Shown here piece by piece: positions 7,063 to 24,181 of a stretch of 64,000 nucleotides of DNA. The position numbers and the translations under genes are program-made. The DNA is from Oligoflexales bacterium (GTDB taxonomy: Bacteria; Bdellovibrionota_B; Oligoflexia; Oligoflexales; RGVZ01), in contig CANILH010000003.1 in the NCBI GenBank assembly GCA_947468665.1, positions 13,961 through 77,960 on the forward strand. The letters run 5' to 3'. The stretch's first letter is position 1. Each line of letters begins with the position of its first letter. The notes beneath the pieces were generated by a model. The model had not been told where the DNA came from. It made no database searches and saw only the letters and a program-made list of their open reading frames with translations.

Positions 7063-7857
7063 TTAATTAGCGCGATTCACACCAACTTGAGGGCTGTGTG
7101 TCACATCTATTGGCACGCCAATCATGTTTTGTTTAACCTCGAAATTACCCATGGGGGCGAATGTTCCGCTGGCGTAACATTCATCGCCGCCATCACAAAC
7201 CTCAGTCCGCGTCCCGCACTTTTGATTTTCATCGGTAACGTAAACACGAAGTGCCGCTTTATGAGTGGTAATTGACAGGACTGTCTTTAGTGACTTTCCA
7301 TCGTTCTCGTATTCAATTGGTGTGAGATTAAAAAAAGCCTCGTTTCGTTCTGAAAGGTATGAGAACCCAAGCCCGGCGGTACCATCTTGCTTCGTTAATT
7401 GTTGGGCCTTCAAGCTATCAGAGTCAGAATAATGCCCAGACATCTCGGCGCCATTCCTGATTTCAGACGCGGGATCAAAGACCACCCAAAAAACCTGAAC
7501 TGGCATTCTTTTTGTGGAGACGTCGTTCTTTTTCTGCGCCGCGAATGCGCATATTCCATCAGGATTTCTACCGACAGCCGCGTCTATTAGGATCGCATCT
7601 TTCCATCTTGAGAACGTTATCGTGAGCAGAGACTTACGCTCAGCTTGCTCGTTTACTACCGGGGCAAAAGCGGCAGCGGGGGAGTCAGATACATGGCTGA
7701 CACCAACGGGTGATTTCGCGATGCCGCACGATGTCAGCACTATTGTCGCGAGGCAAACCGCCGCGAGGGTCTTTGTCGACATCTGGTCGGCCAGGGCGCT
7801 GGCCTTTTTGAGTGTTGAAAACATTTGAGGATCCTCCTGGTAAAGTTTTTGTGGCAA
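7063..7857 (-). CDS. hypothetical lipoprotein
   Basis: 264-aa ORF with lipobox-like IVLTSCG after a hydrophobic stretch. The real start is probably an internal Met (MFSTLKK or MSTKTL). No recognisable domain. Confidence 0.5.
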   Translation of the reverse strand: MPQKLYQEDPQMFSTLKKASALADQMSTKTLAAVCLATIVLTSCGIAKSPVGVSHVSDSPAAAFAPVVNEQAERKSLLTITFSRWKDAILIDAAVGRNPDGICAFAAQKKNDVSTKRMPVQVFWVVFDPASEIRNGAEMSGHYSDSDSLKAQQLTKQDGTAGLGFSYLSERNEAFFNLTPIEYENDGKSLKTVLSITTHKAALRVYVTDENQKCGTRTEVCDGGDECYASGTFAPMGNFEVKQNMIGVPIDVTHSPQVGVNRAN

Positions 7858-7871
7858 CTGGTCGTGTTTTA

Positions 7872-9290: not shown

Positions 9291-9332
9291 ATTTATAGTC
9301 TCCTTTTTTCCTTAACTTTGTTACATGCCGTC

Positions 9333-10517
9333 TTAATCTCGCGAAATCGACTTCAGGCCTCGGTGTGTAAATGGAGTCATGTCCGTTCCATCAAGAGATT
9401 TGGACGCTGCCTCGGGCTTTAAGAGGACCCGGCCGTTGCAGGAGTCAGCATCTACACATGCCTTCACAGTCTTTCGACCGAACTCCAGAAGATCACGGGG
9501 GTTTACGGTACTGCGCTTGAAGGTGTCAAACCCCTCGCGACTCCCCTCGATTTTTACGTCATACCACCAGTTCAACTCCAGAAGGCGGCGATTTACATCG
9601 ATCAGGAAGATGTTTTTCAAAAATCTGTTTACGAGACGCGGCGCGAAATTGCCGCCGATACCAACCGTAAGTAACTCAGGATCCGCGAGTTTAAAGTCCT
9701 GAACAACGGCCTGCATGACAAGCCCACCCTGGTAACGCCTGCTCGCTGGCGGGGGGATGTCAAGAAACGCCGAAGGATTCGGTTCTGCGATTGCAGGGAA
9801 ATAAGTTGGCTCGGAAACTGAGGCGCGTACGGCGAACATAAGATCCGCGGCTGTTTTCACAAGCCGAATATCGCAAAGACGTCGTTCTTCGGGAACTTTT
9901 TGAAGATATGCGGCACCCGCCTCATTGGTAAAATAGGTACAGGCTTTTCCGAGGCGGTTTCCAGTCGCTATATCAAACACATCGAGCGTATCAAAGTTGA
10001 GTCGTTTTGAATTTGCCGGACGCAAGGTACCAGGAACTGTGTCGCGAACCACCTCGTCATTGGAAGCGATAATCGCAAATGGATGGGCTGTTGGGACGCA
10101 GGTGCCATTATTGGTAATCTTAAGGAGAAACGAGTCCAGGACCCGGATGTCTTTTTCGACGTTGATGCCAGCGAACATCTTAATGATTTTAGCGTTGTCA
10201 TCTTCGCCGAGCAGCGCCGGATTGAAAGTGGTGATCTCTCTTGTCGCTGCTTGTACTGACTGAGCGCTAAGACCATGACAGGCAAAGTATGCCGTTAATA
10301 CGGAACCTGAGCTGCTGCCGGTAAAGATCGTTGTTCCGATTTTTTCGGGGTCAAGTTTCGGATACAGTTGATCTAATACTCCGACATCAAAACTAAGAAG
10401 ACTGCCTTTCATCTCAAATGCCACTAGAATGTCTTGTTTAGCGTCCTGGGCAAAAAGACCCTCAGCCGGTAAAGCTAATACGGCAGCTAAGGCAATAATT
10501 TTAAAGAAATGGCGCAT
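9333..10517 (-). CDS. secreted patatin-like phospholipase (tentative)
   Basis: 394 aa. Signal peptide MRHFFKIIALAAVLALPAEGLFA. Nucleophile-elbow G-x-S-x-G in FTGSSSGSVLTAY, with a preceding Gly-rich region. The family call rests on motif only. Confidence 0.55.
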   Translation of the reverse strand: MRHFFKIIALAAVLALPAEGLFAQDAKQDILVAFEMKGSLLSFDVGVLDQLYPKLDPEKIGTTIFTGSSSGSVLTAYFACHGLSAQSVQAATREITTFNPALLGEDDNAKIIKMFAGINVEKDIRVLDSFLLKITNNGTCVPTAHPFAIIASNDEVVRDTVPGTLRPANSKRLNFDTLDVFDIATGNRLGKACTYFTNEAGAAYLQKVPEERRLCDIRLVKTAADLMFAVRASVSEPTYFPAIAEPNPSAFLDIPPPASRRYQGGLVMQAVVQDFKLADPELLTVGIGGNFAPRLVNRFLKNIFLIDVNRRLLELNWWYDVKIEGSREGFDTFKRSTVNPRDLLEFGRKTVKACVDADSCNGRVLLKPEAASKSLDGTDMTPFTHRGLKSISRD

Positions 10518-10676
10518 GGCAAACCCCCATTATCATTAGAACATCATACACGCATAGTAATTTATGAGAAGATTATAACAATCTATCATGAAGATGTAAA
10601 TATTATTAACAAAATATTATTATAATAAGTTTTAACTCGTTGAAATGAGCGCTGAAATGTATGAGGAAGGAGCCCC

Positions 10677-12317
10677 TCAGTGATGATGCTTATGCGCTGT
10701 CTTCTCGAGGTAGTAGTCGTAATTACCCTCGTAGATCCGCATTTCGCCGTGATCAATCTCGAACACCCGGTTAACGATACTTTTGAGGAAGTAGCGGTCG
10801 TGACTTACGATCATGACCGTTCCCTCAAATTCTTTAAGAGCGTTTAAAAGCGTCTCACGGCTGTCGATATCAAGGTGGTTTGTCGGTTCATCGAGTACCA
10901 GGAAGTTCACAGGAGTGGCGAGGATACAGGCCAGCATAACGCGGCTTTTCTCGCCGCCGGAAAGCATCCTGATTTTCTTCTCGATGTCGTCGCCTGAGAA
11001 CATAAATGTCCCAAGAAGATTCCTGAGATACCCAATTGATGCGGCCGGAAGACGGTTGCTGACTTCATCCCAGACGGTGTTCTCAGGGCTCAGAAGATCA
11101 CAGGAATACTGGGAGAAGTAGCCCATATTTACGCTGGCGCCGAGCGTTGCCTTGCCCGAAGTTTCCTTTACATCGCCCGTAACACATTTCAAAAGAGTAC
11201 TTTTTCCGGCGCCGTTAACACCGGTTATGGCAATTTTGTTCTGTCGCATGACCATTCCGGAAATGCCGCTAAAGACTTTTTTAACGCCACCTTCAGGCAA
11301 CGGGTATTCCTTCGCCACGGACTCGAGTTTTACAACATCGTTGCCGCTCCGTGGAGCGGGCGCAAAGTCAAACGAGAGTTTTTTGGTCTCAGGTGGCATG
11401 TCAAGACGCTCGATCTTGTCGAGTTTTTTGACCCGGGACTGAACCTGGGCGGCATGGGACGCGCGGGCCGCGAATTTCGCGATGAAGTCCTCTTCCTTGG
11501 CGAGCTGATCCTGCTGCCGTTTGAACGCGGCGATCTGCTGCTCGCGGCGGATCTCGCGATCTTTCACGTAAAAGTCATAGTTTCCGCTGTAGGTCGTGAT
11601 TTGCTTATTAGCGATCTCAACCGTACGGCCACAAATCCGGTTCATAAATTCCCGGTCGTGACTTGTCATAACAACCGCGCCCTTAAATCCCTTCAGCCAT
11701 TCCTCGAGCCAAATGATCGCCTCAATATCCAGGTGGTTTGTGGGCTCATCTATCAACAGGACATCTGGATTCAAAAGAAGAATCTGACCGAGAGCGATAC
11801 GCATCTTCCAGCCACCCGAGAAACTCTCGACCGGGTGATTATAGGTGTCCGGGCCGATACCGAGACCAGTTAAAATAGCCTGTGCCCTGGATTCAAGATC
11901 GTAACCACCGCGACTCTGGAATTCCATCTGAAGCTCACCAAAGCGCTCCATGAACTTCATCATCTCATCATCTTCCATGGGCTCCTCGCCAAAGCGACCC
12001 ATGCGTTCTTCCATTTTTGCCAGCTCAAGACCGATTTCTGAGACCTTACCAGCACCTGCCATACACTCCGCCAGCGCGCTGCGGCCGGCCATCTCGCCAA
12101 TATTCTGATCAAAGTAACCGACCAAAACACCGGGATCAACCGTGACGGTCCCGTCATCTAGATGCTCATCCCCCACGATCACTTTAAAGATCGTCGACTT
12201 ACCCGCGCCGTTTGGGCCAACCAGTCCGATTTTATCGCCTTGGCGAACAAGAAAGCTCGCTCCTTGATAAAGAACCCGGTCTCCATAGCGCTTGGTCGCG
12301 TTGCTTACATTGATCAT
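10677..12317 (-). CDS. ABC-F family ATPase (two fused ABC domains, no TM domain)
   Basis: Two Walker A sites (GPNGAGKST, GVNGAGKST), two signature motifs (FSGGWKMR, LSGGEKSR) and two Walker B sites (LLIDEPTNHLD, LVLDEPTNHLD). Start moved to the ATG at 12317, which has AGAGGA 5 nt upstream. Confidence 0.9.
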   Translation of the reverse strand: MINVSNATKRYGDRVLYQGASFLVRQGDKIGLVGPNGAGKSTIFKVIVGDEHLDDGTVTVDPGVLVGYFDQNIGEMAGRSALAECMAGAGKVSEIGLELAKMEERMGRFGEEPMEDDEMMKFMERFGELQMEFQSRGGYDLESRAQAILTGLGIGPDTYNHPVESFSGGWKMRIALGQILLLNPDVLLIDEPTNHLDIEAIIWLEEWLKGFKGAVVMTSHDREFMNRICGRTVEIANKQITTYSGNYDFYVKDREIRREQQIAAFKRQQDQLAKEEDFIAKFAARASHAAQVQSRVKKLDKIERLDMPPETKKLSFDFAPAPRSGNDVVKLESVAKEYPLPEGGVKKVFSGISGMVMRQNKIAITGVNGAGKSTLLKCVTGDVKETSGKATLGASVNMGYFSQYSCDLLSPENTVWDEVSNRLPAASIGYLRNLLGTFMFSGDDIEKKIRMLSGGEKSRVMLACILATPVNFLVLDEPTNHLDIDSRETLLNALKEFEGTVMIVSHDRYFLKSIVNRVFEIDHGEMRIYEGNYDYYLEKTAHKHHH

Positions 12318-12401
12318 GAGCGTCCTCTGTGAACTTGGGGTCAAAACGACCTGAAACTGAATAAAAAGAGGGCTCAATGTACACGAACACCCATGAATTT
12401 C

Positions 12402-12425
12402 AAAGCCCGCTCTACGGCGGGCTAT
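12402..12425 (-). terminator. putative terminator hairpin after the 806-aa gene
   Basis: 7-bp stem agcccgc (12404-10) / gcgggct (12417-23) with loop tctacg. Followed on the minus strand by TTTGAAATT. Lies 40 bp downstream of the stop at 12465. Confidence 0.45.
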
Positions 12426-12464
12426 GAAATATGAAATCTAATTAGTTATTAGATAGTTACAGAA

Positions 12465-14885
12465 TTAGGCCGCGATTGAACTCCGGCTTAACGCCATCTC
12501 AACTTGCCCTGACTGACGACGAATCTGATCCAGGTGCTCGGCCGCGAAAATACGATCATTGATGTCAATCAGGCGGATCGCGCCACTATTGGCGAGGTTT
12601 CTGACCCGCCCTAGAATACGCATTTCAGCCAACCGGTACCGTCCTTCATCAATGCCCGAAACCTGTTCAATATCTTCCATCCAGCTTTGGGAAAGCTCTG
12701 CGGGCGCTTTCGCAAGCAGAAGTTCCCTGATGTGGTCCGGCGAACCGATCAGGAAGGTCAGGAGATCCTCTCGCTCAAGTCCCATGACGATCTCAATCAG
12801 ATGACCATCTTTGATGTAAGGAAGCATCTCAACAGTGACCAATTTCAATTTGATGGCGCGCGACGCCTCAGGATTCGTCGTGACCAGGTCAGCCATAAGC
12901 GCTCGCTGTTCGTTCAGAGACGACTTCTCCAGCAGATCAATAATAATATCGCTTGATCGCAACTGTTCAGTATCGAATTCGGTGCGGGAGAGAACCTTTT
13001 TGTGAAGTGCCTTGGCGACGTTAGCGAGATACTCTTTAGGAATAGCGTTAGCCTTACAGAGCTCTCGCATGAGAGCCACCTTGGATTCTCCCTCGTACAT
13101 ATCAAAGACAGACCGCCGGCGATTATGATCGAGCTGCGTCAGAACAACACTCTGCACATGAGGTTTTTCCTCAGATACGAGTGCGAATATCTGGGTCGCG
13201 TCAAGGTTTTGGAGAAAATCAAATTGCTCAGCCCGCTTACGGGACATCACCCTTATCTCACTTGAGGTGACTTTGGTCTTTAACCCGTTCAGCAGATCAA
13301 GCGTCTGCTCGTCGGTGAACGCGAACGTTGACTTGTAATAAAACTCACTCAGATCATGCAAGTCTCTCTGAAGATTAGGATCATTCATCATGTCAAAAAT
13401 AATCATCGGCCCAAAAAGGTTAACGTACCGCGATGTCTGCTCCACACCTTCTTCCTGAAGCATGCGTGTAAAGGTATCCCGAGCGACTTTAGGGTTATCA
13501 GTGAAAGCCTTTAAAAGATCCTCACGCAAAAACTCAATTTTCATTTTGATTGATAATGATTCTCTTGATGTAGGCACGGACTGAGACTGCTGCGATTGCA
13601 TCGCGCCACCCTGACTCTGATGAGACTCGCCGCCCTGAGACGTCCCGAATCCGGCTGCTGAACCACGGGCATAGTTTCCCGCGGGCATCGCCTCCATCAT
13701 CATGCGGGCATCCTTGGACGCGGACGCGAATTTCATTATCATGGCGACAATGATTCCCGCCAGAACAAGAAATCCGGCAATATATGCCATGTATTCGTTA
13801 TTCTCACCGCCCTGCTTCTTCTCAGACGCGTTGATCTCCGCTGATTTCTCCGAGGAGAGGGCTGAATTGGAAATTGCCTTCTCTGAGGCGGACGACTTCT
13901 CTTTACTCGTCATGTTTGAGTTTTCTTTGGACTCTTTGGACTCGCTGCGCTCAGTAGCGCTCAACTCCTTTGAGTTTTGGCTGCTGCGATCTGTCGAATT
14001 TTGACTTGTGTTGGTAATAATTTCCTTGGTACTCGCGAGGTCACGGAAGATCTGCAACGTTTGGCGCAGGCGATCTAGTCCCCACGGATCCTGCGCTGAT
14101 TTCGAAGCATGGCTCTCGGGGAAATCCACGACCGAAACATTAACATTGATCGGGAACGCGAACCTCGTCTTCGCTTTGATCAGATTATAGATCTTCGAGC
14201 GATTGGCCTCTGGAAGTTTTTCGTCAATACTCAAATCAATATCAATATTTTCAATCCGAAGAATCCCACGACCGCCACGCTCACGGGTCAGCTCGCGCTC
14301 AGGAACTCCGCGAGCCTCATCGGGAGACACTAGTTTGCCATCCACTCCGACGTTTGCCAGTACACATTCCTGAGGACAGTAGCTGTCAATCGTCTGCTGC
14401 ACAGCGGCGTGGATACGCTGCTGGAGATTCATTTTGAGGCGGTCCTCGACCTCAGCCGACACACCGATCTGAGGAAACGCCACCGAGCTCCATCGGACTG
14501 TGGCCGCGGGAGATAAAGTTCTTACGGAGTTTGAAATAAGCCTGCCAAGACGCTCCTGATCCGCGGCTGTGACCCGGTCATCCACCTGGACATCGACTGT
14601 CAATTTCGAAACGCTGGCCTTGATACCGCTATCACCGGCGACACTCTCAAATCCTAATTCCTCGGATTCGCTGGCCGCCTCGCCAACCACAACGTCAACG
14701 TTAATGAGCTCACAGGCGTCCCCGCAATATTTTTGAAGTACAGCGGCAACCTTGTTTTTCGCGAGTTCCGTCGCTTCCTGCTCAACTTTGAACGCCTGCC
14801 CTGACGCGGCATACGCGGTCGTCACCGGCAAGGCGACCAGCGGGAAAGAGATTATCAATGCGCCTAAAAACAAGTTCACGTTCAC
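12465..14885 (-). CDS. bitopic membrane protein: periplasmic FliF/SctJ-like ring-building repeats fused to a cytoplasmic full-length FliG-like region
   Basis: 806 aa. Domain order:
- Signal/TM1: FPLVALPVTTAYA.
- Two tandem alpha-beta-beta-alpha-beta modules (QKYCGDACELINVDVVV...; DSYCPQECVLANVGVDG...).
- S/E/K low-complexity linker.
- TM: YMAYIAGFLVLAGIIVAMIMKF.
- Q/G-rich linker.
- FliG_M-like block: LVSEEKPHVQSVVLTQLDHNRRRSVFDMY.
- FliG_C-like block: VEMLPYIKDGHLIEIVMGLEREDLLTFLIGSP...WMEDIEQVSG...NLANSGAIRL. Confidence 0.6.
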   Translation of the reverse strand: MNVNLFLGALIISFPLVALPVTTAYAASGQAFKVEQEATELAKNKVAAVLQKYCGDACELINVDVVVGEAASESEELGFESVAGDSGIKASVSKLTVDVQVDDRVTAADQERLGRLISNSVRTLSPAATVRWSSVAFPQIGVSAEVEDRLKMNLQQRIHAAVQQTIDSYCPQECVLANVGVDGKLVSPDEARGVPERELTRERGGRGILRIENIDIDLSIDEKLPEANRSKIYNLIKAKTRFAFPINVNVSVVDFPESHASKSAQDPWGLDRLRQTLQIFRDLASTKEIITNTSQNSTDRSSQNSKELSATERSESKESKENSNMTSKEKSSASEKAISNSALSSEKSAEINASEKKQGGENNEYMAYIAGFLVLAGIIVAMIMKFASASKDARMMMEAMPAGNYARGSAAGFGTSQGGESHQSQGGAMQSQQSQSVPTSRESLSIKMKIEFLREDLLKAFTDNPKVARDTFTRMLQEEGVEQTSRYVNLFGPMIIFDMMNDPNLQRDLHDLSEFYYKSTFAFTDEQTLDLLNGLKTKVTSSEIRVMSRKRAEQFDFLQNLDATQIFALVSEEKPHVQSVVLTQLDHNRRRSVFDMYEGESKVALMRELCKANAIPKEYLANVAKALHKKVLSRTEFDTEQLRSSDIIIDLLEKSSLNEQRALMADLVTTNPEASRAIKLKLVTVEMLPYIKDGHLIEIVMGLEREDLLTFLIGSPDHIRELLLAKAPAELSQSWMEDIEQVSGIDEGRYRLAEMRILGRVRNLANSGAIRLIDINDRIFAAEHLDQIRRQSGQVEMALSRSSIAA

Positions 14886-14980
14886 TCCTGATGCTTTTGG
14901 ACATTTAAGGCATCGGAGAGAACGTGGAATACTTAACGGGGCAAAATTTGCCTGGCCGGGATCGGCCTGGATGGCAAAAA

Positions 14981-15979
14981 CTATTTAAGGGAGGTCTCAA
15001 TTTCTTTGGTTAAAGCCTCAACCGTATGGGCGCCCATATAGCGGCGGCCATTGATCAGAAGATAGGGAGTACCGCTTACGCCAACGCGTTCGCCCTCCTG
15101 ACGTCCTTTCTCAACCATGGTTTTGCCTTTTGTGCCATCGAAGCAAGTCTTGAACTTGGACTCATCCAGCTTTAATTCCTTGGCAAGCTTAGCAGGTGAG
15201 TCCTTATCGAGCGTCGCCTGACCATCGAAAGCCTTATAATGGTATTCCCAATATTTGCCCTGCTCTTCGGCGCAGTGACTACCCTCAGCCACAAGTTTAC
15301 TGATTCCGGACGGATTGATCGGGAAATCCAAATATACGAATTTGACCTTGTCTTTGAACTTCTCGGTGACTTTTTTGATGCTTTCCGACGCTACTTTACA
15401 ATGAGGACACTGAAAATCAGCAAACTCAAGGAGAGTTACCTTGGCGCCGTCTTTACCTTTGGATGGAAATCCATCCGCGTTAACAGTAACGATGGGAGAT
15501 TCGGGCTTAGGGAGGCTCAACGTGAATTTTTTGTCTTTTTTGATCTTCTCAATCAGATCATCACGTTTCTTCTTCATCTCTTCTTGTTTTACGATTTTGA
15601 CTATTTCGCCTTTGATCTGATCAAACTGATAGTTGGGCGGAATGCGTGTTTTGTTTGCCTCAAACCAGGTCTTTACTGCTTTATCGGAAGGCTCTTTGAC
15701 ATCAAGAAGTTTCTTCTCGATCTCATCACGGGGCTTATTCTGCTTTTTGGCTTCCTCAGTGACATGAATATCAAAAATCATATTGTCAACGGCCGCACGG
15801 GTTTGCTCATAGCTCTGCATCGAGATCTCAAACATCTGCTGCTGCTGCGCGGGCGTTAAATCTTTCTCGGTATATGACTTGCCACCCATAGTAAATAACC
15901 CATCGGCCAGCGCGGGACCCGCGATCATGAACGCGCTCGTAAGCAAAATTCGAATACTTCTCATGTTGATATCCTCCAA
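14981..15979 (-). CDS. DsbA-family thiol:disulfide oxidoreductase with long Lys/Glu-rich N-terminal region
   Basis: 332 aa. Signal peptide, then thioredoxin-fold active site EFADFQCPHCK. C-terminal GVSGTPYLLINGR is typical of the DsbA/DsbG-like family. Confidence 0.8.
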   Translation of the reverse strand: MEDINMRSIRILLTSAFMIAGPALADGLFTMGGKSYTEKDLTPAQQQQMFEISMQSYEQTRAAVDNMIFDIHVTEEAKKQNKPRDEIEKKLLDVKEPSDKAVKTWFEANKTRIPPNYQFDQIKGEIVKIVKQEEMKKKRDDLIEKIKKDKKFTLSLPKPESPIVTVNADGFPSKGKDGAKVTLLEFADFQCPHCKVASESIKKVTEKFKDKVKFVYLDFPINPSGISKLVAEGSHCAEEQGKYWEYHYKAFDGQATLDKDSPAKLAKELKLDESKFKTCFDGTKGKTMVEKGRQEGERVGVSGTPYLLINGRRYMGAHTVEALTKEIETSLK

Positions 15980-16027: not shown

Positions 16028-17059
16028 TTACAGACTTTGTGTGCCATTTACGGTGGCACTGACCTCAGATGAGGGCGCTACCGCGCCAGCCTTAACGTCG
16101 ACCATGCCAGTGGTTGAGAATTGGACAGGCCGCATCATAAAGTTATCAAACATCTCACGGACAATTTTCCATGCGCCTTCGGCGTCTTTACGAAGATAGA
16201 TCATTTTCCGGCCATCTGACCGAAAACGGCTATCACCGGAGAAATCCTGATTCATCATCGCCAGGGCGTATTTGGGATGAGTCAATACTCTAAGATTGGA
16301 CATTTTGACGGAGATTGTTTTGTAGGAGGCGAATACAGCCCTTTTATAGGACTCATAGGCGCCCTTACTTTTACCGGCGTTGTTAAAATCAGTGGCGTAA
16401 AAACTGATATAACGGGTGACGTCACGACTTGCCCACGCGTCAACCCAGCTAATCGAGGCTTTAGTAGCCCCCTGGACATCCTCGGGACGGTTAACCTCGG
16501 CTGCGTCACGCGCGATGACTACAACTCCATGGTTGGGCTGAAGCCACTGCGTCAAACTGGTAATTTCGGAATTTTGGAACGCCACACAACCCTCAGTCAC
16601 GCGCACGTCCTCAATCTTGCGATCTCCGACACCGTGCAGCCAGATTCCATAACCTGTTTTTCCGGAAACCTGATCCATGGGGTTTGGAAAGTTTAGAGGA
16701 ATCGCAAGAGGACCGTATTTATTTGGAGCTAATTGTTTTGCGGGAATAGTGCCCTGTGTAAAGTAAATACCCTCTGGCGTCTTGTTGTCGCCCTGGCGCT
16801 CCTTGTCACCATCGACTTTTCCTGTAGCGATTTTAAAGGTTCGCAGGACTCGCGCCGTAGAAGCGTCCTCAGGCAATGTACGGAGATCCGCCTTGCTGTG
16901 AGTCTTATCCACAGTAAGCATGATCATTTCCTCAACTTTTTCAGGCGAGGATTCGTTGGCGACCGCAAGCAACGGGCTAGCGATGCCCGATAGCAAGATG
17001 GGAAAGTATAGATATTCAAATCGTGCCTTACGCAACACGTTGTTTAACTCCCAGGACAT
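16028..17059 (-). CDS. L,D-transpeptidase (YkuD domain) with C-terminal NTF2/SnoaL-like domain
   Basis: Catalytic block GYGIWLHGVGD...VRVTEGCVAF (His and Cys of the YkuD motif). C-terminal ISWVDAWASRDVTRYISFYATDF...GAWKIVREMF resembles NTF2-like folds. Confidence 0.85.
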   Translation of the reverse strand: MSWELNNVLRKARFEYLYFPILLSGIASPLLAVANESSPEKVEEMIMLTVDKTHSKADLRTLPEDASTARVLRTFKIATGKVDGDKERQGDNKTPEGIYFTQGTIPAKQLAPNKYGPLAIPLNFPNPMDQVSGKTGYGIWLHGVGDRKIEDVRVTEGCVAFQNSEITSLTQWLQPNHGVVVIARDAAEVNRPEDVQGATKASISWVDAWASRDVTRYISFYATDFNNAGKSKGAYESYKRAVFASYKTISVKMSNLRVLTHPKYALAMMNQDFSGDSRFRSDGRKMIYLRKDAEGAWKIVREMFDNFMMRPVQFSTTGMVDVKAGAVAPSSEVSATVNGTQSL

Positions 17060-17196
17060 GAGATCGCATTAGTCTTAAGGTATCTTTTAATTGTGACGTA
17101 TTTCAATTTTAATAACAAGCGTCTGCTTGTAACTATCGCTGCTAACTACCCGCATTTGCCAAGAAATTGAAGCAAGACTGGGGATATAACCAGATT

Positions 17197-18273
17197 TTAG
17201 TCCTTGAAGGGCTCCAATGCCTTTATAATCTCAGCAAAATCCTCAGGCAATGTAGCCTCAAACTGTGTCCACTGTTTAGTCAAAGGATGACTGAACCCAA
17301 GCACCCAGGCATGAAGCATCTGCCGACCCACACCAGCGATCTTCGCCTCCAGTTCAGCTGGAAACACTCCCCGCCCGACACAAAGGGGTGCTTTGCCGTA
17401 CACCTGATCACCAACGATAGGCGAACCGAGGTCCCGGGCATGGATTCGGATCTGGTGGGTACGCCCCGTATGGAGTTTTAAGCTTACGAGCGAGAGCAAG
17501 CCTTTGTACTGGGACTCCCGCTTAAAAACAGTTCTGGAGAAACGAAAGCCTTGAAGCTCCACATCGCCAGAGACGCCTTCACGTTGCTTGCGATGCTCAT
17601 ATTGAGCAATGTCCATAGACGCAAAGCGAGTCCGTTCTCTCGGATCCCGGTGCAGATAACTATCCCGAACCCAGTCCCCTTCAGGAAAGGGACCATTCAT
17701 CAAGGCGATATACTGCCTAAAATTAGTCTTATCATGAAATTGTTTTGAAAGATCCGCATGCGCCATGTCTGATTTAGCGACGACCATCACGCCGGTCGTG
17801 TCTTTATCCAGACGATGCACGATACCCGGCCTAAGCGAGCTTTCGTCCTCATCATCATCAACAGCGCGGCCTTGTCCGAGCTTCCTACAGTGATGCAGGA
17901 GCCCGTGTACCAAAGTTGGTCCGGTCTCCCCGGCTCCTGGATGCACGGAGACGCCGGCCCGCTTATTCACGACAATGACATGATCATCCTCAAACAAAAT
18001 ATCCAGATCCATCGCGACAGGCTCAAGAAATGTGCGCGCCTGGGGAAGATCCTTGTAGCGGATAACGTCCCCTTCCCGAACCAGTTGCTTAACCTCTCCT
18101 GGCGTCCCGTTAACAAAAACGAGCCCTTGCTCAATCATGTCACGCACTTTGTTCCGCGAGACTCCGGAGAGTGCGCGGCTGAGGACCAGGTCCAAACGAA
18201 GGCGCCCCTCGTCGAGGGGCGCTACCGTGATTTCATGTTCTGTAGATGCCATTATTTTTGTCCAGCTTGCCAC
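17197..18273 (-). CDS. RluA/RluD-family pseudouridine synthase with S4 domain
   Basis: S4-like N-terminus (RLDLVLSRALSGVSRNKVRDMIEQGLVFVNG). Catalytic HRLDKDTTGVMVVAKS and C-terminal HTGRTHQIRIH. Overlaps the upstream gene by 22 bp unless the Met at 18252 is used. Confidence 0.9.
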   Translation of the reverse strand: MASWTKIMASTEHEITVAPLDEGRLRLDLVLSRALSGVSRNKVRDMIEQGLVFVNGTPGEVKQLVREGDVIRYKDLPQARTFLEPVAMDLDILFEDDHVIVVNKRAGVSVHPGAGETGPTLVHGLLHHCRKLGQGRAVDDDEDESSLRPGIVHRLDKDTTGVMVVAKSDMAHADLSKQFHDKTNFRQYIALMNGPFPEGDWVRDSYLHRDPRERTRFASMDIAQYEHRKQREGVSGDVELQGFRFSRTVFKRESQYKGLLSLVSLKLHTGRTHQIRIHARDLGSPIVGDQVYGKAPLCVGRGVFPAELEAKIAGVGRQMLHAWVLGFSHPLTKQWTQFEATLPEDFAEIIKALEPFKD

Positions 18274-18986
18274 GCCTCAAGTCGCGCGGCGTAGGCCGTC
18301 ACTATTCGTTCGAGGTTTGGAACATTGAGATAGCGCAAGTAACTGCGCATAAATCCCTTGACGTAAACCACTTGCGGCAAGGAATCGAACCGGTTGTTCT
18401 CCATTCCGCGAATATACTCAAGCAGTATTTTCGTCCGCTCCTGCATTTCCACCTGGCTGACCCCCGCCAACTCCCTCAGAGCTATTAGGATAGAGCCGTC
18501 AGCGACGTCACCCTCGTCCATCATGACCAAAAATTTATCCTGTAATCCTCGGTCGTTACTTCCGGCAGCCTGGGTTTTGATGATCTTAAGGGTGCTCCGG
18601 CTGGTTTGGATAATCTCGCTGGCAGCGTTCCCGGGAATTGGCTTCCACATATCAGCCTCGGCCGTCCACTCACTGGCCTCTGCCTTACCTGAGGCACCGA
18701 GCAACTTACGGTCGTAGGCCGCCCTTTGAATGTCGTCATTCAATACATTGAAGGCCTGATCAATCTCCGCAATCTGGCGGGATAAATCACCGGCTCCAGT
18801 CATCCCATAGAGGCCATCACGGCCATTGGAGTATAAATTTTTCAGCCGCAGATAAGATTCCCGAATCATAATTCGAGTCGCAGAGGGCTCCACGTTCAGC
18901 ACGTTATAGTGTGTAGAGATCGGAAACGACGGCGATACACCGGAACCGGAAGCCACCGTGTTTATGTCACAATTCTCGATATTCAT
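18252..18986 (-). CDS. J-like domain (no HPD) + RodZ-like helix-turn-helix protein
   Basis: 244 aa. N-terminal HYNVLNVEPSATRIMIRESYLRLKNLY...AFNVLNDDIQRAAYDRKL follows the J-domain pattern, but the HPD tripeptide is replaced (SNGRD). C-terminal LRELAGVSQVEMQERTKILLEYIRGMENNRFDSLPQVVYVKGFMRSYLRYL resembles the RodZ/Xre-type HTH. Confidence 0.55.
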   Translation of the reverse strand: MNIENCDINTVASGSGVSPSFPISTHYNVLNVEPSATRIMIRESYLRLKNLYSNGRDGLYGMTGAGDLSRQIAEIDQAFNVLNDDIQRAAYDRKLLGASGKAEASEWTAEADMWKPIPGNAASEIIQTSRSTLKIIKTQAAGSNDRGLQDKFLVMMDEGDVADGSILIALRELAGVSQVEMQERTKILLEYIRGMENNRFDSLPQVVYVKGFMRSYLRYLNVPNLERIVTAYAARLEAWQAGQK

Positions 18987-19042
18987 GCTTGAAAACCTCC
19001 ATGTCGCTTGTCTTTTGGATCAGAAAGCTAAGTTAAAATACT

Positions 19043-20206
19043 TCAGGGAGCTACGACCGGCATAGCACCCCTGATCAATCCGGAACTACCAACACCGCTA
19101 CCAGTGATGCTCACCCCGCAATGCCGGAGTAAATTATTGGTCGCATCACTAAGTCTCCTGACTATAATCGACTGCGGAAAATCAATCAGAAGCAAACGCT
19201 TATTACGCAGGCTCTTCCACGCGGTCTCATCATAGTTCAAGTATCCAAGATAAGCAGCCGAAAAACCAAAATATCTCTGTGCCGCCATTTCCATGGCTTT
19301 GCCGATGTCTATATCCGCCTGAGACCTGGTTTGGTTGATGACAATTCCCAGAAGTCGCCCCGAAAGGGCCGATGCCATAGGCCCCACGGTTCCGGGGTTT
19401 GCCTGAAACAGATAACGCAGCTTCTCGGTATAGCTTCGGCCAGGGGAGCCTGGGATCTCCTGATTAAGGGCGGTGAGGATGGCCTCCCCCTCCTCCATCC
19501 GGCCTAACCTGTGCGCCGCATGACGCAATGTCCTCATAAGACAGGCACGCATAAATAGGTAAGCGTTCTCAACGGAGGTAGGCTCTGGCAGAGCAGTAAT
19601 GACACCCGCGTGCGCGCAGCAAAACAGGTCAATTGTATGCCTGCTCGTTCCCGCGCCCAAATCCAGAATCACAACCTGATATCCGATATCACCCAACGAT
19701 GTTATGCCGCTCCAAAGCCGGCCAAAACCATCGCTCGAAAGACTATCCGAGATCGTCCACGCCTCATCACGCTGCGAAGATGCGATAGCGAGGCCCGGCA
19801 CGCTGGTCGGCGTCAAAACACCCGGCAAATCAGCTTTCCCCGCGACGAGCCAATCCCCAAGACTCGCGGGGACTGACGACATTCCAAAATATGTATGTAA
19901 ATTAGCTCCGCCACAGTCCAGATCGAGCGCGGCCACATTAAGACCAAGCCGGGCTAAGCGCGCAGCCAGATTCGCGGCTATTAGACTCTTGCCGACCCCC
20001 CCTTTGCCGCCTCCGACGGCGATGATCAATGGGCGGGACACCGATGGGGCCACACACTGCGCTGGCAAACCAAGGCTCCAGCCCCGATGGCGAAGTGTCA
20101 TCATTGGAGTTGGCAGTTCTAATGGTACGCGGGCGAATACTCCCGGCTTAGGCGCGTTATGATCGATATTCATTGAAGCGCCAGCCGCATATCGTGAGTT
20201 AAGCAT
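19043..20206 (-). CDS. MinD/ParA/FlhG-family P-loop ATPase with ~65-aa N-terminal extension
   Basis: Deviant Walker A IIAVGGGKGGVGKSLIAANLA. Also ALDLDCGGANLH and VVILDLGAGTS, typical of MinD/FlhG-type ATPases. Alternative start at the Met at 20173. Confidence 0.8.
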   Translation of the reverse strand: MLNSRYAAGASMNIDHNAPKPGVFARVPLELPTPMMTLRHRGWSLGLPAQCVAPSVSRPLIIAVGGGKGGVGKSLIAANLAARLARLGLNVAALDLDCGGANLHTYFGMSSVPASLGDWLVAGKADLPGVLTPTSVPGLAIASSQRDEAWTISDSLSSDGFGRLWSGITSLGDIGYQVVILDLGAGTSRHTIDLFCCAHAGVITALPEPTSVENAYLFMRACLMRTLRHAAHRLGRMEEGEAILTALNQEIPGSPGRSYTEKLRYLFQANPGTVGPMASALSGRLLGIVINQTRSQADIDIGKAMEMAAQRYFGFSAAYLGYLNYDETAWKSLRNKRLLLIDFPQSIIVRRLSDATNNLLRHCGVSITGSGVGSSGLIRGAMPVVAP

Positions 20207-20434
20207 ATGATCCAGTTCCTTCCCGAGTCCGCGACCCCAAGGTGACCTGACGGGGCACCCCCAACGTCAGACTACAAACCGCTGTCATCAGGCCTATTTT
20301 TGAGACCATCAGGACAGACTACCATTTCCGCGAAACTGCTGACAACTTTTGCGCAAAATTCCGGAAGAATATTTTTTAACAAAATTGGAGAGCGTCCTCT
20401 GGGATATATTTCGAGGATTTAAACAAACCAAGGC

Positions 20435-20995
20435 CTACTTTACTGGCAAAACAAGGGCTAACAGCAACGCTGCGCCCAAGACGACATAGAGACCTACGCC
20501 CCTCGCAATGAGCCAGTACAATGTGCTTTTGCGCATCGCGGCCCACGCGACAATTACCCCGTGTGCGATGAAGGCGAATACCATCATAAGATCTAGCCTG
20601 GCCATGCGCTTCAAAAACATGCCATCACTCAACACCCATTGCTTATCGGGTGGCATCAGACCCTTAACCTTTGGAAGCATCTGCAAGAGCAGCGGATCGC
20701 CGGACCACTGAAACCAACCCATTGTCACGGCGAAAACTCCCGCCATGACCACCGGCTGAAACTTGAACAGCCGGTCGTCTTTCATTCTGACACTGATCAA
20801 CCCCATGGCAAGAATCAGTCCTAGAGAGATCCATGTGGTCTTATCCACCTCTCCGTAGTGCTGCCAACTCCATGCAGCCTCAAACAGCGCGAAAATAATC
20901 GCTGCGATTATCGCCGTACGCATACCGGCAAAGATATCCACTATGGCAAATACGATCAGCGGCAGGAGCCCCTGGAGAGCGAAATCAAATGTCAT
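20435..20995 (-). CDS. polytopic inner-membrane protein (YciB/IspZ-like, tentative)
   Basis: 186 aa with about 5 hydrophobic helices. Size and N-terminal LLPLIVFAIVDIF pattern are reminiscent of septation protein A. No strong motif. Confidence 0.35.
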   Translation of the reverse strand: MTFDFALQGLLPLIVFAIVDIFAGMRTAIIAAIIFALFEAAWSWQHYGEVDKTTWISLGLILAMGLISVRMKDDRLFKFQPVVMAGVFAVTMGWFQWSGDPLLLQMLPKVKGLMPPDKQWVLSDGMFLKRMARLDLMMVFAFIAHGVIVAWAAMRKSTLYWLIARGVGLYVVLGAALLLALVLPVK

Positions 20996-23842: not shown

Positions 23843-24181
23843 ATGTCATCCGAACCAGAAGAACAGAAAATATCGGCGATCATGACGCCCTTAAAGGACT
23901 TTATTAAGGATTCCACTAAGGTCTCAGACCTGTTCGGCGACAAACGTTTTAATGAGCGGGGCGTCATGTTTGTCGTTGACGCCTCCGGAAAACTATTGGG
24001 CGCCCTTCGCGAACGACGTATTGTCGCTTGCCGCCACTTAATTAAAGTGGGCCGCGAAAACTTGCCAAAGTCATACCTCGATTTACTCGACACAATCAAA
24101 AACAATGCCTTTCGCTGTTTTGTAGCCGCCGAGCTCGTTAGCCTTGTCGATCAATTATTAAGAGACGAGTGTTCAGCGTGA
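23843..24181 (+). CDS. small hypothetical protein (possible single CBS-like module)
   Basis: 112-aa ORF overlapping the next gene by 13 bp. MTPLKDFI...VMFVVDASGKLLGAL is CBS-like, but the match is weak. Confidence 0.35.
   Translation: MSSEPEEQKISAIMTPLKDFIKDSTKVSDLFGDKRFNERGVMFVVDASGKLLGALRERRIVACRHLIKVGRENLPKSYLDLLDTIKNNAFRCFVAAELVSLVDQLLRDECSA

What the first reader, a model, noticed from the sequence alone, without database searches (positions are those of the whole stretch)
12465..14885. FliF/SctJ-like ring repeats fused to a complete FliG-like rotor module, outside any flagellar or T3SS locus
One 806-aa ORF combines several elements in this order.
- A signal peptide or TM1.
- Two tandem ~100-aa modules. 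Each has the alpha-beta-beta-alpha-beta order of ring-building motifs and starts its first strand with Y-C-x3-4-C-x-L-x-N-V (QKYCGDACELINVDVVV; DSYCPQECVLANVGVDG).
- An S/E/K low-complexity spacer.
- One TM helix.
- A Q/G-rich spacer.
- About 330 aa colinear with whole FliG. The middle domain is LVSEEKPHVQSVVLTQLDHNRRRSVFDMYEGESKVALMRELCK, compared with the FliG EHPQ-type block. The C-terminal domain is VTVEMLPYIKDGHLIEIVMGLEREDLLTFLIGSP...SQSWMEDIEQVSGID...RVRNLANSGAIRL, compared with FliG F-x-FEDL..LDD.SIQ..L.EV...DL..ALKG.S....L.EDME..GPV...R.L...GEI.

This has the same topology as an MS-ring protein covalently joined to its switch/rotor protein. The neighbours, however, are DsbA-like, L,D-transpeptidase, RluD and ABC-F genes, and the gene ends in its own terminator hairpin. 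The only stator-like genes in the window are the TolQ/ExbD-type motor genes at 50.2-52.1 kb. A rotor-like partner for a non-flagellar MotA/TolQ-family motor, or a new envelope-spanning ring machine, is a possibility I cannot find described.
Basis: partly seen in the sequence, partly recalled or inferred. Interest (0 to 1): 0.8.

Follow-up and report, generated by a model that had tools for sequence, protein, structure and literature searches.

The report
Membrane-anchored FliF/FliG-like rotor protein
This gene encodes a single membrane protein that joins two ring-protein-like modules outside the cell membrane to a copy of the flagellar rotor protein FliG inside. In related bacteria it sits in an operon with its own MotA/MotB motor genes and no other flagellar parts, which points to an undescribed motor-driven envelope machine.

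Summary
Window 12465-14885 (-) encodes an 806-aa protein with these parts, in order:
- a signal peptide
- two homologous alpha-beta-beta-alpha-beta modules, each with an invariant C-x3-C
- an S/E/K-rich spacer
- one TM helix
- a Q/G-rich spacer
- a FliG-like region: Pfam FliG_M and FliG_C pass their cut-offs, and Foldseek aligns it to full-length FliG

The periplasmic half is closest in fold to the FliF MS-ring, but it has no sequence match to FliF or SctJ.

The family is confined to Oligoflexia. In Oligoflexales, including this window, the gene follows a conserved ParA-like / DnaJ-HTH / RluD / Ldt / DsbA block. In Silvanigrellales-type relatives it lies immediately downstream of a PomA-like MotA and a MotB, with start and stop codons overlapping. 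A distant one-module family in high-GC bacteria has the same MotA-MotB-fusion order inside a conserved operon of about 11 genes, most with no Pfam match.

The MotA E98 / FliG R281 charge pair is reversed on both partners in the Oligoflexia family. It is kept in the distant family.

Best reading: this is the rotor-like partner of a dedicated MotAB stator in an undescribed envelope machine. Four things remain unshown: the stator in this genome, ring formation, rotation, and what the machine drives.

The parts
12465..14885 (-). Whole ORF, 806 aa. The likely true start is the GTG at 14879 (804 aa), with AGGAG at 14885-14889.
14808..14885 (-). Sec-type signal peptide, residues 1-26, ending in AYA|AS.
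   Evidence: Read from the sequence; composition; low pLDDT over residues 1-26.
14484..14801 (-). Periplasmic module 1, residues 29-134. Alpha-beta-beta-alpha-beta fold with invariant C54-x3-C58.
14127..14462 (-). Periplasmic module 2, residues 142-253. Homologous to module 1, with invariant C170-x3-C174.
   Evidence: (hhalign E=1.6e-14)
14016..14096 (-). The most conserved segment of the protein, residues 264-290 (DPWGLDRLRQTLQIFRDLAxTKEII). It is a periplasmic helix just before the spacer.
   Evidence: Invariant D266, P267, L273, L277, F280, T286, K287 and E288; helix 270-285.
13803..14015 (-). S/E/K-rich disordered periplasmic spacer, residues 291-361.
13689..13802 (-). Single transmembrane helix, residues 362-399, with a hydrophobic core at about 365-386. 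K/R residues follow on the cytoplasmic side.
13572..13688 (-). G/S/Q-rich disordered cytoplasmic spacer, residues 400-438.
13209..13571 (-). FliG_N-like helical domain, residues 439-559. The similarity is at fold level only.
   Evidence: Foldseek aligns 318 columns to full-length FliG 3hjl; no Pfam FliG_N hit.
12921..13208 (-). FliG_M-like domain, residues 560-655. It has a partial EHPQR-like motif: E573 and Q578 are invariant.
12510..12920 (-). FliG_C-like domain, residues 656-792.
12648..12710 (-). Equivalent of the FliG torque helix, residues 726-746 (KAPAELSQSWMEDIEQVSGID). It is uniformly acidic: E730 aligns to FliG R281, E737/D738 to D288/D289, and D746 to R297.
12404..12423 (-). GC-rich hairpin 3' of the stop codon (AGCCCGC-N6-GCGGGCT), with a weak T-tract.
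14981..15979 (-). Upstream DsbA-like periplasmic thiol-disulfide oxidoreductase (CPHC). It is adjacent to the target in 27 Oligoflexales loci. It is a plausible helper for the four invariant periplasmic cysteines, but this is inferred and not shown.
16028..20995 (-). Conserved co-directional synteny block upstream in Oligoflexales: IspA-like, ParA/MinD-like, DnaJ+HTH_25, RluD, and L,D-transpeptidase with an NTF2-like domain. A functional link to the target is not shown.

Best explanation
The gene encodes the Oligoflexales ortholog of a single-chain, membrane-anchored rotor-like protein.

**Anatomy.** After signal-peptide cleavage, the protein has two parts on either side of one TM helix.
- In the periplasm, a flexible S/E/K-rich tether holds two tandem FliF/SctJ-like modules.
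- In the cytoplasm there is a FliG-like N-M-C unit.

**Shown.**
- In sister lineages this protein is co-transcribed, and probably translationally coupled, with a dedicated PomA/MotA-MotB stator.
- The same operons also carry two conserved envelope proteins: an unk418-like periplasmic protein and a TPR lipoprotein.

**Inferred.**
- The MotA cytoplasmic loop engages the acidic torque-helix equivalent of the FliG-like C domain, as in the flagellar motor. Proton or sodium flow through MotAB would then move or rotate an oligomer of this protein in the inner membrane.
- The periplasmic modules would pass that motion to periplasmic or outer-membrane partners.
- The machine has no export apparatus, rod, hook or filament genes in its operon, so it is most likely a flagellum-independent envelope machine.
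- In the Oligoflexia family the MotA E98 / FliG R281 salt bridge is charge-reversed on both partners. That would insulate this motor from the canonical flagellar rotor and stator where both exist in one cell.

**In this window's clade.** The gene has been separated from the stator genes. It sits after a conserved DsbA-like / L,D-transpeptidase block, and its stator must be encoded elsewhere in the genome.
For: **Architecture.**
- FliG_M and FliG_C pass their Pfam cut-offs.
- FliG chains are the best PDB matches by sequence.
- FliG chains are the best PDB matches by fold.
- FliF is the best fold match for the periplasmic half: 7bk0_B E=1.7e-7.
- The two periplasmic modules are homologous to each other.

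**Real, constrained family.**
- 71 full-length clusters range from 100% to 30% identity, with 51 invariant residues.
- 67 genomic loci were found, all in Oligoflexia.

**Stator linkage.**
- About 17 Silvanigrellales-type loci carry MotA-MotB-target, and two more fragments carry MotB-target.
- Further lineages show the same order.
- The MotB stop and target start overlap as ATGA.
- The MotA is PomA-like over its full length, E=2.5e-30.
- The MotB has a plug and an OmpA domain.

**Independent replication.**
- The periplasmic profile finds only 168 proteins among 1.84 billion. Among them is a one-module family of 530-610 aa with the same layout.
- All 8 loci of that family that cover this position have MotA-MotB-fusion, inside a conserved operon of about 11 genes. 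In L077 the stop and start overlap as TGATG.
- Five genes are homologous one for one between the two operon types.

**Charge co-variation at the known MotA-FliG contact (pairings as stated in 10.1101/2024.07.22.604496).**
- The R90 : D288/D289 pair is kept everywhere.
- The E98 : R281 pair is kept in canonical proteins and in the one-module family.
- In the Oligoflexia family, position 281 is E/D in 35/35 sequences, and MotA has lost the Glu and gained K/R.

**No flagellar genes.** None is present in the window.

**Phenotype.** Oligoflexus tunisiensis carries the gene (L038) but is non-motile, and no flagella were seen (PMC4179278 and PMC5154148).
Against: - No MotAB, unk418-like or TPR partner gene lies in this 64-kb window or within 10 kb of the target in any Oligoflexales locus.
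- Stand-alone MotAB pairs of the same stator family exist, but I could not show that they come from target-bearing genomes.
- RBM similarity is fold-level only. TM-scores are 0.25-0.46, OsmC-like folds score nearly as well, and there is no sequence match to FliF or SctJ.
- Ring formation, rotation and the driven output are all untested.
- Long disordered tethers on both sides of the TM helix look poor for transmitting torque.
- The charge co-variation depends on alignments of short, divergent segments. The Oligoflexia MotA also has a conserved acidic residue two positions after the Arg.
- Silvanigrellales are flagellated, and one locus has FlgE/FlgD genes 3-8 kb away, so a flagellum-associated role is not excluded.
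Confidence: 0.65

Rival explanations
1. It is a flagellum-associated accessory. It could be an extra membrane ring or stator-docking platform, or a second rotor, that works with the flagellar motor of flagellated Oligoflexia rather than as a separate machine.
For: - Silvanigrellaceae are motile and have flagellar genes (PMC7386786).
- Locus L070 has FlgE, FlgD and an FliK-like gene 3-8 kb from the operon.
- The associated MotA is of the flagellar PomA type.
- TPR and periplasmic scaffold proteins next to stators recall MotX/MotY and PflA/PflB (my own knowledge).
Against: - No flagellar gene lies inside the conserved cassette in about 45 operon-type loci.
- The one-module operon of about 11 genes has no flagellar domain.
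- The gene is kept in non-motile, aflagellate-looking O. tunisiensis.
- The reversed E98/R281 pair argues for insulation from the canonical FliG and MotA rather than cooperation with them.
Confidence: 0.15
2. It is a TonB/TolA-like energy transducer rather than a ring. Individual molecules would be pushed by MotAB through their FliG-like domain. The long periplasmic tether would then carry the N-terminal module to outer-membrane partners.
For: - It is a single-pass protein with a long, low-complexity periplasmic spacer. The spacer is S/E/K-rich here and Pro/Lys/Glu-rich in the one-module family.
- The one-module operon includes proteins with weak OMP beta-barrel hits.
- All other non-flagellar 5:2 motors (Ton, Tol, Agl-Glt, GldLM) work through such transducers (my own knowledge).
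Against: - TonB and TolA are engaged through their TM helix inside the ExbB/TolQ pentamer, not through a FliG-like domain.
- The protein keeps all three FliG domains, which in flagella polymerise into a ring.
- The periplasmic fold is closest to ring-forming FliF, and no TonB or TolA structure appears among the top matches.
Confidence: 0.15
3. It is simply this lineage's own fused FliF-FliG, that is, the flagellar MS-ring and rotor in one chain.
For: - The topology equals an MS-ring protein joined to FliG.
- Engineered FliF-FliG fusions are functional (PMC7355467; PDB 8z4d).
- JGI annotates homologs as FliG.
Against: - The TIGR00207 FliG equivalog scores 47 bits against a cut-off of 226.7.
- There is no YscJ_FliF or FliF sequence match.
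- It has only two short modules and no sequence-detectable RBM3/collar region.
- It is never next to fliE, fliH, fliM, fliN or export genes in about 90 loci.
- The torque-helix arginines are replaced by acidic residues.
- It is present in a non-flagellated species.
- Caveat: I could not scan whole genomes to demonstrate a separate canonical fliF/fliG.
Confidence: 0.04
4. In Oligoflexales the protein has lost its motor role. It now acts as a cell-envelope or cell-shape scaffold or sensor together with the neighbouring DsbA-like, L,D-transpeptidase, RodZ-like and ParA-like genes. The FliG-like part would then be only a helical-repeat interaction or MgtE_N-like sensing domain.
For: - The gene is unlinked from MotAB in every Oligoflexales locus. 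It is instead embedded in a co-directional block conserved in 25-31 loci.
- FliG and MgtE_N are homologous folds. The one-module family often scores better on MgtE_N.
Against: - The torque-helix equivalent is as strongly conserved in Oligoflexales as in the operon-type lineages. P728 and W735 are invariant, E730 and E737 nearly so, and the net charge is -3 to -4. That implies the same partner surface is still under selection.
- MgtE_N scores only 12.4 bits here, below its cut-off.
- The block contains housekeeping genes (RluD, IspA), so it may be mere synteny.
Confidence: 0.1

Closest known systems
Flagellar MS-ring/C-ring pair FliF + FliG, including engineered FliF-FliG fusion proteins (e.g. 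PDB 8z4d)
   Same: - The order of parts is the same: periplasmic alpha-beta-beta-alpha-beta modules, a TM helix, then cytoplasmic FliG N-M-C domains.
- FliG_M and FliG_C are detectable by sequence.
- FliF is the best fold match for the periplasmic half.
- It is partnered with a PomA/MotA-MotB stator in relatives.
- The R90 : D288/D289-type charge pair is kept.
   Different: - It is one natural polypeptide, with a cleavable signal peptide in place of FliF TM1.
- It has two duplicated modules with C-x3-C motifs, and no sequence similarity to FliF.
- Long disordered tethers flank the TM helix.
- The FliG R281 and R297 positions are acidic.
- The EHPQR motif is only partly kept.
- No fliM/fliN, export gate, rod, hook or filament genes are in the operon.
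- It scores far below the FliG equivalog threshold.
SctJ/PrgK/EscJ inner-membrane ring lipoprotein of injectisomes
   Same: - Same topology: N-terminal secretion signal, two tandem RBM-type modules in the periplasm, a linker, and a C-terminal TM helix.
- PrgH/PrgK and YscD appear among the fold matches (E about 4e-3).
   Different: - No lipobox and no sequence match to YscJ_FliF.
- It has a cytoplasmic FliG-like region of about 400 aa instead of a short tail.
- No T3SS genes are nearby.
Non-flagellar 5:2 ion-driven motors with their transducers (ExbBD-TonB, TolQR-TolA, AglRQS-GltG/J, GldLM, ZorAB)
   Same: - A MotA/ExbB-family motor is encoded next to a single-pass inner-membrane protein that reaches across the periplasm through a low-complexity spacer.
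- It sits in operons with TPR proteins and possible outer-membrane proteins.
   Different: - The stator here is of the flagellar PomA/MotB-plug/OmpA type, not the ExbB/TolQ type.
- The driven protein carries a FliG-like domain, which none of those systems has.
- No TonB_C or TolA domain is present.
- No Zorya components were found in PADLOC.
MgtE N-terminal domain (distant homolog of FliG)
   Same: It has the same helical-repeat superfamily fold. The one-module relatives often hit MgtE_N.
   Different: - The window protein scores 12.4 bits, below the 25.9 cut-off.
- It has no CBS or MgtE transporter domains.
- All top sequence and fold matches are FliG.

Membership tests
FliG (flagellar rotor/switch protein) | FliG_M (PF14841) and FliG_C (PF01706) domains above Pfam gathering scores | tested here: met
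   FliG_M scores 28.7 against a cut-off of 25; FliG_C scores 33.9 against 23.3. PDB FliG 3hjl matches at E=1e-9.
FliG (flagellar rotor/switch protein) | FliG_N domain that binds the FliF C-terminus | tested here: inconclusive
   There is no Pfam FliG_N hit. However, Foldseek aligns 318 of 321 columns of full-length FliG 3hjl. Here the domain is covalently tethered to the TM helix.
FliG (flagellar rotor/switch protein) | Orthology-level score on the NCBIfam equivalog TIGR00207 | tested here: not met
   47.1 bits against a cut-off of 226.7.
FliG (flagellar rotor/switch protein) | Torque-helix charge pattern K264 / R281 / D288 / D289 / R297 | tested here: not met
   The aligned residues are I713 / E730 / E737 / D738 / D746. 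Position 281 is E/D in 35/35 sequences, and position 297 is D/E in 30/35.
FliG (flagellar rotor/switch protein) | EHPQR motif for FliM binding | tested here: inconclusive
   E573 is present in 35/35 sequences, K574 in 22/35, P575 in 19/35, and Q/H576 in 24/35. Arg is seen in most sequences at the column I aligned by eye to R160. No FliM gene is nearby.
FliG (flagellar rotor/switch protein) | Soluble cytoplasmic protein encoded in a flagellar gene cluster (fliF-fliG-fliH...) | tested here: not met
   The protein has a signal peptide and a TM helix. No flagellar genes are present in the 64-kb window or inside the cassette in related loci.
FliG (flagellar rotor/switch protein) | Functional partnership with a MotA/MotB stator | tested here: inconclusive
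   Operon linkage with overlapping stop and start codons is seen in relatives, together with charge co-variation. This is not seen in the window or in any Oligoflexales locus. No interaction was measured.
FliF / SctJ ring-building-motif proteins (Pfam YscJ_FliF) | Sequence match to YscJ_FliF or to any solved FliF/SctJ chain | tested here: not met
   No Pfam hit in residues 1-470. The profile of the periplasmic region finds no PDB sequence at E<=10. The distant hits of that profile are not FliF.
FliF / SctJ ring-building-motif proteins (Pfam YscJ_FliF) | Alpha-beta-beta-alpha-beta RBM fold, with ring proteins as nearest structural neighbours | tested here: inconclusive
   The secondary-structure order is met twice at high pLDDT. 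The best Foldseek hits are FliF 7bk0_B at E=1.7e-7 and 6scn_A at 2e-6, with PrgH/K and YscD at about 4e-3. However, TM-scores are 0.25-0.46, and OsmC/Ohr folds score at about E=1e-3.
FliF / SctJ ring-building-motif proteins (Pfam YscJ_FliF) | Secretion signal, tandem periplasmic modules and a C-terminal TM helix | tested here: met
   The signal is a Sec-type signal peptide, not a lipobox.
FliF / SctJ ring-building-motif proteins (Pfam YscJ_FliF) | Assembly into a homo-oligomeric ring | not testable with these tools
   No multimer prediction or experiment was available.
MgtE_N-domain proteins | MgtE_N (PF03448) above its gathering score, with CBS and MgtE transporter domains | tested here: not met
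   12.4 bits against a cut-off of 25.9, and no CBS or MgtE domain. No MgtE structure appears among the top sequence or fold matches.
Ton/Tol/Agl-Glt-type transducers | TonB_C or TolA C-terminal domain, partnered with ExbB/ExbD-type proteins | tested here: not met
   No such domain is present. The partner stator in relatives has MotB_plug and OmpA domains and is PomA-like. The window's ExbB/ExbD cluster has its own FHA/TonB_C protein.
Zorya or other anti-phage defence systems | Match to ZorA/ZorC/ZorD or other PADLOC models | tested here: not met
   No PADLOC hit for the target, the MotA or the unknown partners. Only generic MotB-to-ZorB similarity was found.

The most novel reading that the evidence does not exclude
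The protein is the rotor of an autonomous, flagellum-independent, MotAB-powered rotary machine of the cell envelope. This would be a ring of single-chain FliF/FliG-like subunits, turned by flagellar-type stators and coupled to periplasmic and outer-membrane partners. It exists in at least two deep families: two-module in Oligoflexia, and one-module in high-GC bacteria. It would be the first non-flagellar use of the FliG-MotA torque interface. It could be either an exaptation of flagellar parts or a surviving relative of the rotor-stator module from which the flagellar motor was built.
Probability: 0.45. Interest if true: 0.92.

Novelty: new variant of a known kind. Interest (0 to 1): 0.85.

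Why it matters
**Current view.** Flagellar-type MotAB/PomAB stators and FliG are regarded as specific to the flagellum. The recent stator phylogeny treats the flagellar-type clade as flagellum-associated (PMC12505986). A survey of flagellar loss only raises the possibility that rotor proteins could have alternative functions (PMC12199754).

**What is different here.** A conserved, stator-linked FliG-like protein is welded to a FliF-like periplasmic part. Its operons have no export apparatus, rod, hook or filament genes.

**If it is an independent machine, it would:**
- give a minimal natural rotor-stator module for study
- be a case of engineered-looking orthogonality, because the salt bridge is reversed on both partners
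- provide a new data point for the long-standing question of how the flagellar motor was assembled from simpler parts

**Testability.** Silvanigrella and Fluviispira strains are cultured, so the idea can be tested directly.

Tried and rejected
**1. Is the stator just outside the window?** Close relatives showed a Clp fragment about 10 kb beyond the target, and stand-alone MotAB pairs sit next to ClpS-ClpA. Reading 10 kb beyond the window's left edge showed ClpB and an M28 peptidase, with no MotAB.

**2. Linking stand-alone MotAB loci (L071, L073) to target-bearing genomes.**
- The adjacent gene of about 304 aa (HTH/ImmA-like) resembles the gene next to the target only in L039, which is too weak to use.
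- Source records gave no organism names.

**3. The window's ExbB/ExbD genes as the partner.** They are ExbD-type, with no plug or OmpA domain. They lie in their own TPR / OMP / FHA-TonB_C cluster, and no homolog of the cassette partners is in the window.

**4. Defence-system reading (Zorya).** PADLOC found nothing relevant.

**5. Sequence-level RBM homology.** There is no Pfam hit and no PDB hit with the family profile. The 530-610-aa hits of the profile looked like FliF by length, but they turned out to be a one-module FliG-like family.

**6. Identifying the unknown partners.** unk213 and unk418 have no Pfam, PDB or PADLOC match.

**7. Searches that failed outright.**
- A broad alignment of the one-module family was too divergent for the metagenome scan, so a tighter one was used.
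- The supplement of the Silvanigrellaceae paper, which lists flagellar genes, is not held.

**8. Literature searches.** I looked for a described membrane-anchored FliG or a non-flagellar MotAB-FliG pairing and found nothing.

Full report
**1. The observation**

Window 12465-14885 (-) is an 806-aa ORF.
- An AGGAG lies 5 nt before the second GTG at 14879. The identical database protein P0001 has 804 aa. The real start is therefore probably two codons in.
  - a Sec-type signal peptide, residues 1-26
  - two modules of about 105 aa, at residues 29-134 and 142-253
  - an S/E/K-rich spacer, residues 286-361
  - one TM helix, residues about 362-399
  - a G/S/Q-rich spacer, residues 400-438
  - an all-helical region, residues 439-792
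- The Cys motifs are C-x3-C in both modules, and all four cysteines are invariant in 35 of 35 homologs.
- The two modules are homologous to each other, so this is a tandem duplication (hhalign probability 98.3%, E=1.6e-14).
- The 3' hairpin exists at 12404-12423 but has no proper T-tract, and the terminator scan did not call it.
- A second imperfect GC-rich hairpin lies between the DsbA-like gene and the target. The gene may therefore be transcribed on its own; I did not test this.

**2. The cytoplasmic half is FliG-like, not merely helical**

- Pfam FliG_M (28.7 bits, cut-off 25) and FliG_C (33.9 bits, cut-off 23.3) both pass. MgtE_N does not (12.4 bits, cut-off 25.9).
- All significant PDB sequence matches are FliG. 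The best is 3hjl at E=1e-9, aligning residues 558-772 to FliG 113-327.
- A full-length AlphaFold2 model has mean pLDDT 74, with the folded parts at 85-94. It matches full-length FliG over 318 of 321 columns (3hjl E=4e-9; Salmonella C-ring chains 7e-8 to 2e-6).
- It is not an orthologous FliG. The NCBIfam equivalog TIGR00207 gives 47 bits against a cut-off of 226.7.

**3. The periplasmic half is FliF/SctJ-like in topology and fold only**

- A separate model of residues 27-290 (pLDDT 83) ranks FliF first: 7bk0_B E=1.7e-7, 6scn_A 2e-6, and the RBM3/collar chain 6sd1_A 5e-4. YscD and PrgH/PrgK follow at about 4e-3.
- TM-scores are low (0.25-0.46), and generic alpha-beta-beta-alpha-beta folds such as OsmC/Ohr also score at about 1e-3.
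- There is no Pfam hit in residues 1-470. A family profile of this region matches no PDB sequence at all.
- The ring-building-motif reading is therefore reasonable but not proven. Ring formation could not be tested.

**4. The family and where it occurs**

- The homolog search returned 71 full-length clusters from 100% down to 30% identity, all from metagenomes or MAGs. Some are annotated by JGI as FliG. An alignment of 35 of them has 51 invariant residues.
- A scan of one genome per species found 67 loci. The labelled records are Oligoflexales, Oligoflexus, Pseudobacteriovorax or Silvanigrellales/Silvanigrellaceae. The rest carry generic or evidently loose MAG labels.
- The cultured Oligoflexus tunisiensis Shr3 carries the gene (L038).

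**5. Two kinds of gene context**

- **Oligoflexales, including this window.** The gene ends a conserved co-directional block: IspA-like, ParA/MinD-like, DnaJ+HTH_25, RluD, L,D-transpeptidase, then usually a DsbA-like gene, then the target.
  - The block is found in 25-31 loci, down to 37% target identity.
  - Downstream there is often a cNMP-binding protein, a CBS-domain enzyme and PilMNOPQ.
- **Silvanigrellales-type lineages.** The gene is the last member of a cassette: Trx-like, unk213, unk418, unk281 (a TPR lipoprotein), MotA, MotB, target.
  - About 17 loci carry it, and two more fragments have MotB-target.
  - The MotB stop and target start overlap as ATGA.
  - More lineages with MotA only 46-52% identical have the same order.
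  - L062 has a rearranged version: unk418, unk281, target, cNMP-binding gene, MotA, MotB.

**6. The stator is of the flagellar type**

- The operonic MotA aligns over its full length to Vibrio PomA (E=2.5e-30) and to other solved flagellar MotA proteins.
- The MotB has a MotB_plug and an OmpA domain, and it keeps the AYAD motif with the channel Asp.
- MotA homologs form a closed group: 84 clusters at 43% identity or more, then a drop to 32%.
- PADLOC finds no defence system.

**7. A second, much more distant family repeats the pattern**

- A profile of the periplasmic region, searched against 1.84 billion representative proteins, found only 168 hits. After the two-module family comes a tier of 530-610-aa proteins that match one module.
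- Their layout is as follows:
  - a signal peptide
  - one module with the same RLCPGRCEL and PGFE motifs
  - a Pro-rich spacer
  - a TM helix
  - a FliG_C/MgtE_N-like C-terminal region
- Twelve loci of this family were read, on contigs with GC from 0.47 to 0.74 (several contigs are near-duplicates). One of them is a 7.5-Mb assembly. They share a conserved operon of about 11 genes, with the order g557, g226, g701, g319a, g441, TPR, MotA, MotB, fusion, g319b, g178.
  - All 8 loci that cover both positions have MotA-MotB-fusion.
  - The other four are contig-end fragments that keep the same order.
  - In L077 the stop and start overlap as TGATG.
- Five genes are homologous one for one with the Silvanigrellales cassette:
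  - g441 to unk418, E=7e-14
  - TPR to unk281, E=8.5e-13
  - MotA to MotA, 30% identity
  - MotB to MotB, 33% identity
  - fusion to fusion, E=4e-12
- In the 7.5-Mb assembly the g441-like and TPR proteins are fused into one 689-aa protein. Some operon members have weak outer-membrane beta-barrel hits, below the Pfam cut-off.

**8. Charge co-variation at the known torque interface**

The canonical contacts are MotA R90 with FliG D288/D289, and MotA E98 with FliG R281 (10.1101/2024.07.22.604496; PMC12505986).

| Group | FliG-side positions | MotA side |
|---|---|---|
| Canonical FliG and MotA/PomA | K264 / R281 / D288 / D289 / R297 | R...L-E |
| One-module family | Arg at or next to 281, Glu at 289, usually K/R near 297 | V-R-R-[DE]-[KR]-G...L-E in most of 8 loci (the Arg and the L-E in all 8) |
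| Oligoflexia two-module family (window, O. tunisiensis, Pseudobacteriovorax) | E/D at 281 in 35/35, E at 288 in 34/35, D/E at 297 in 30/35; net helix charge -3 to -4 in 34/35 | Arg kept in most; L-E replaced by L-A-[QRK]-x-[KR] |

- One salt bridge is therefore kept and the other is reversed on both partners. That is the pattern expected if the two proteins touch as in the flagellar motor. It would also insulate this pair from a canonical rotor and stator in the same cell.
- Caveats: the segments are short and divergent, and the alignment can shift by a residue or two. The Oligoflexia MotA also has a conserved acidic residue two positions after the Arg.

**9. What this means for the gene in the window**

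- The window protein has the full, strongly conserved acidic helix, with P728 and W735 invariant. The same partner surface still seems to be under selection.
- No MotAB, unk418-like, TPR or unk213 gene is in the 64 kb, in the 10 kb beyond its left edge, or within 10 kb of the target in any Oligoflexales locus.
- Stand-alone MotAB pairs of the same stator family, carrying the same basic signature, occur next to ClpS-ClpA. They are candidates for the unlinked stator, but I could not show that they come from target-bearing genomes.
- The window's ExbB-ExbD-ExbD genes at 50.2-52.1 kb belong to a different cluster, with an OMP, three TPR proteins and an FHA/TonB_C protein.

**10. Relation to flagella**

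- The window has no flagellar or T3SS gene.
- Silvanigrellaceae are motile and have flagellar genes (PMC7386786). One locus has FlgE, FlgD and an FliK-like gene 3-8 kb away.
- O. tunisiensis carries the gene but is non-motile, and no flagella were seen (PMC4179278 and PMC5154148).
- The gene's presence therefore does not track flagellation. A flagellum-associated role in flagellated lineages is still not excluded. I could not check whole genomes for a separate canonical fliF/fliG.

**11. Mechanism, with what is shown and what is inferred**

- **Shown:** the domain architecture; family conservation; operon linkage to a flagellar-type stator and to two conserved envelope proteins in two deep families; and co-variation at the stator contact residues.
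- **Inferred:**
  - The FliG-like C domain is engaged by MotA.
  - The protein oligomerises through its FliG-like and RBM-like parts.
  - Ion flow moves or rotates this assembly.
  - The periplasmic modules pass the motion to periplasmic or outer-membrane partners.
  - The neighbouring DsbA-like protein may oxidise the four invariant cysteines.
- **Unknown:** stoichiometry, whether anything rotates, and what the output is.

**12. Novelty**

Searches of the held literature found engineered FliF-FliG fusions (PMC11481574; PMC7355467). They also found general remarks that rotor proteins without a filament might have other functions (PMC12199754). I found no description of a natural membrane-anchored FliF/FliG-like protein, or of a non-flagellar MotAB-FliG pairing. 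I rate it a new variant of a known kind, namely a rotor-stator motor. There is a substantial chance that it is a separate machine.

Noticed in passing
window 41187-52121 (-): Co-directional cluster: ExbB (51456-52121), two ExbD genes, a weak OMP beta-barrel protein, three TPR proteins (one of 1052 aa) and a 737-aa FHA + TonB_C protein. The layout resembles Agl/Glt gliding or Tol/Ton-type trans-envelope systems. It is not related to the MotAB cassette.
   Followed up: partly
L068:5479-6120 (+) and orthologs in L045-L070: unk213, the second gene of the Silvanigrellales-type cassette, is a soluble helical E/L/R-rich protein with no database match. Its mean pairwise identity is 91%, where MotA is 63% and the target is 48%. 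This constraint is unexplained.
   Followed up: partly
L089:6226-8295 (+): In a 7.5-Mb assembly, the g441/unk418-like protein and the TPR lipoprotein of the cassette are fused into one 689-aa protein. This Rosetta-stone hint suggests the two act together.
   Followed up: partly
L012-L042 (16 loci) and L062: A cNMP-binding protein of about 188 aa lies next to the target in many Oligoflexales loci, in either orientation. In L062 it lies between the target and MotA. PilMNOPQ often follows 2-3 kb further on.
   Followed up: partly
L018, about 10001-15500: One Oligoflexales MAG has two full-length copies of the target family. They are in convergent orientation and separated by an NFACT-type gene.
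   Followed up: no
window 7063-10517 (-): Three ORFs with no Pfam match (264, 472 and 394 aa) are inserted between the ABC-F gene and the urocanase gene, compared with close relatives L004 and L008.
   Followed up: no
window 24169-27105 (+): A 978-aa ORF with no Pfam match at E<=1e-5.
   Followed up: no
window 27200-34393 (+): Lipid-synthesis block: two enoyl/ketoacyl-ACP reductase-like genes, a FabA-like dehydratase, two ketoacyl synthases and an NAD_binding_4 fatty-acyl reductase-like gene.
   Followed up: no
window 14886-14980 (-): An imperfect GC-rich hairpin (CCAGGCCG-ATCC-CGGCCAGG) followed by CAAATTTTG lies between the DsbA-like stop and the target start. It may separate the two transcription units.
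   Followed up: no
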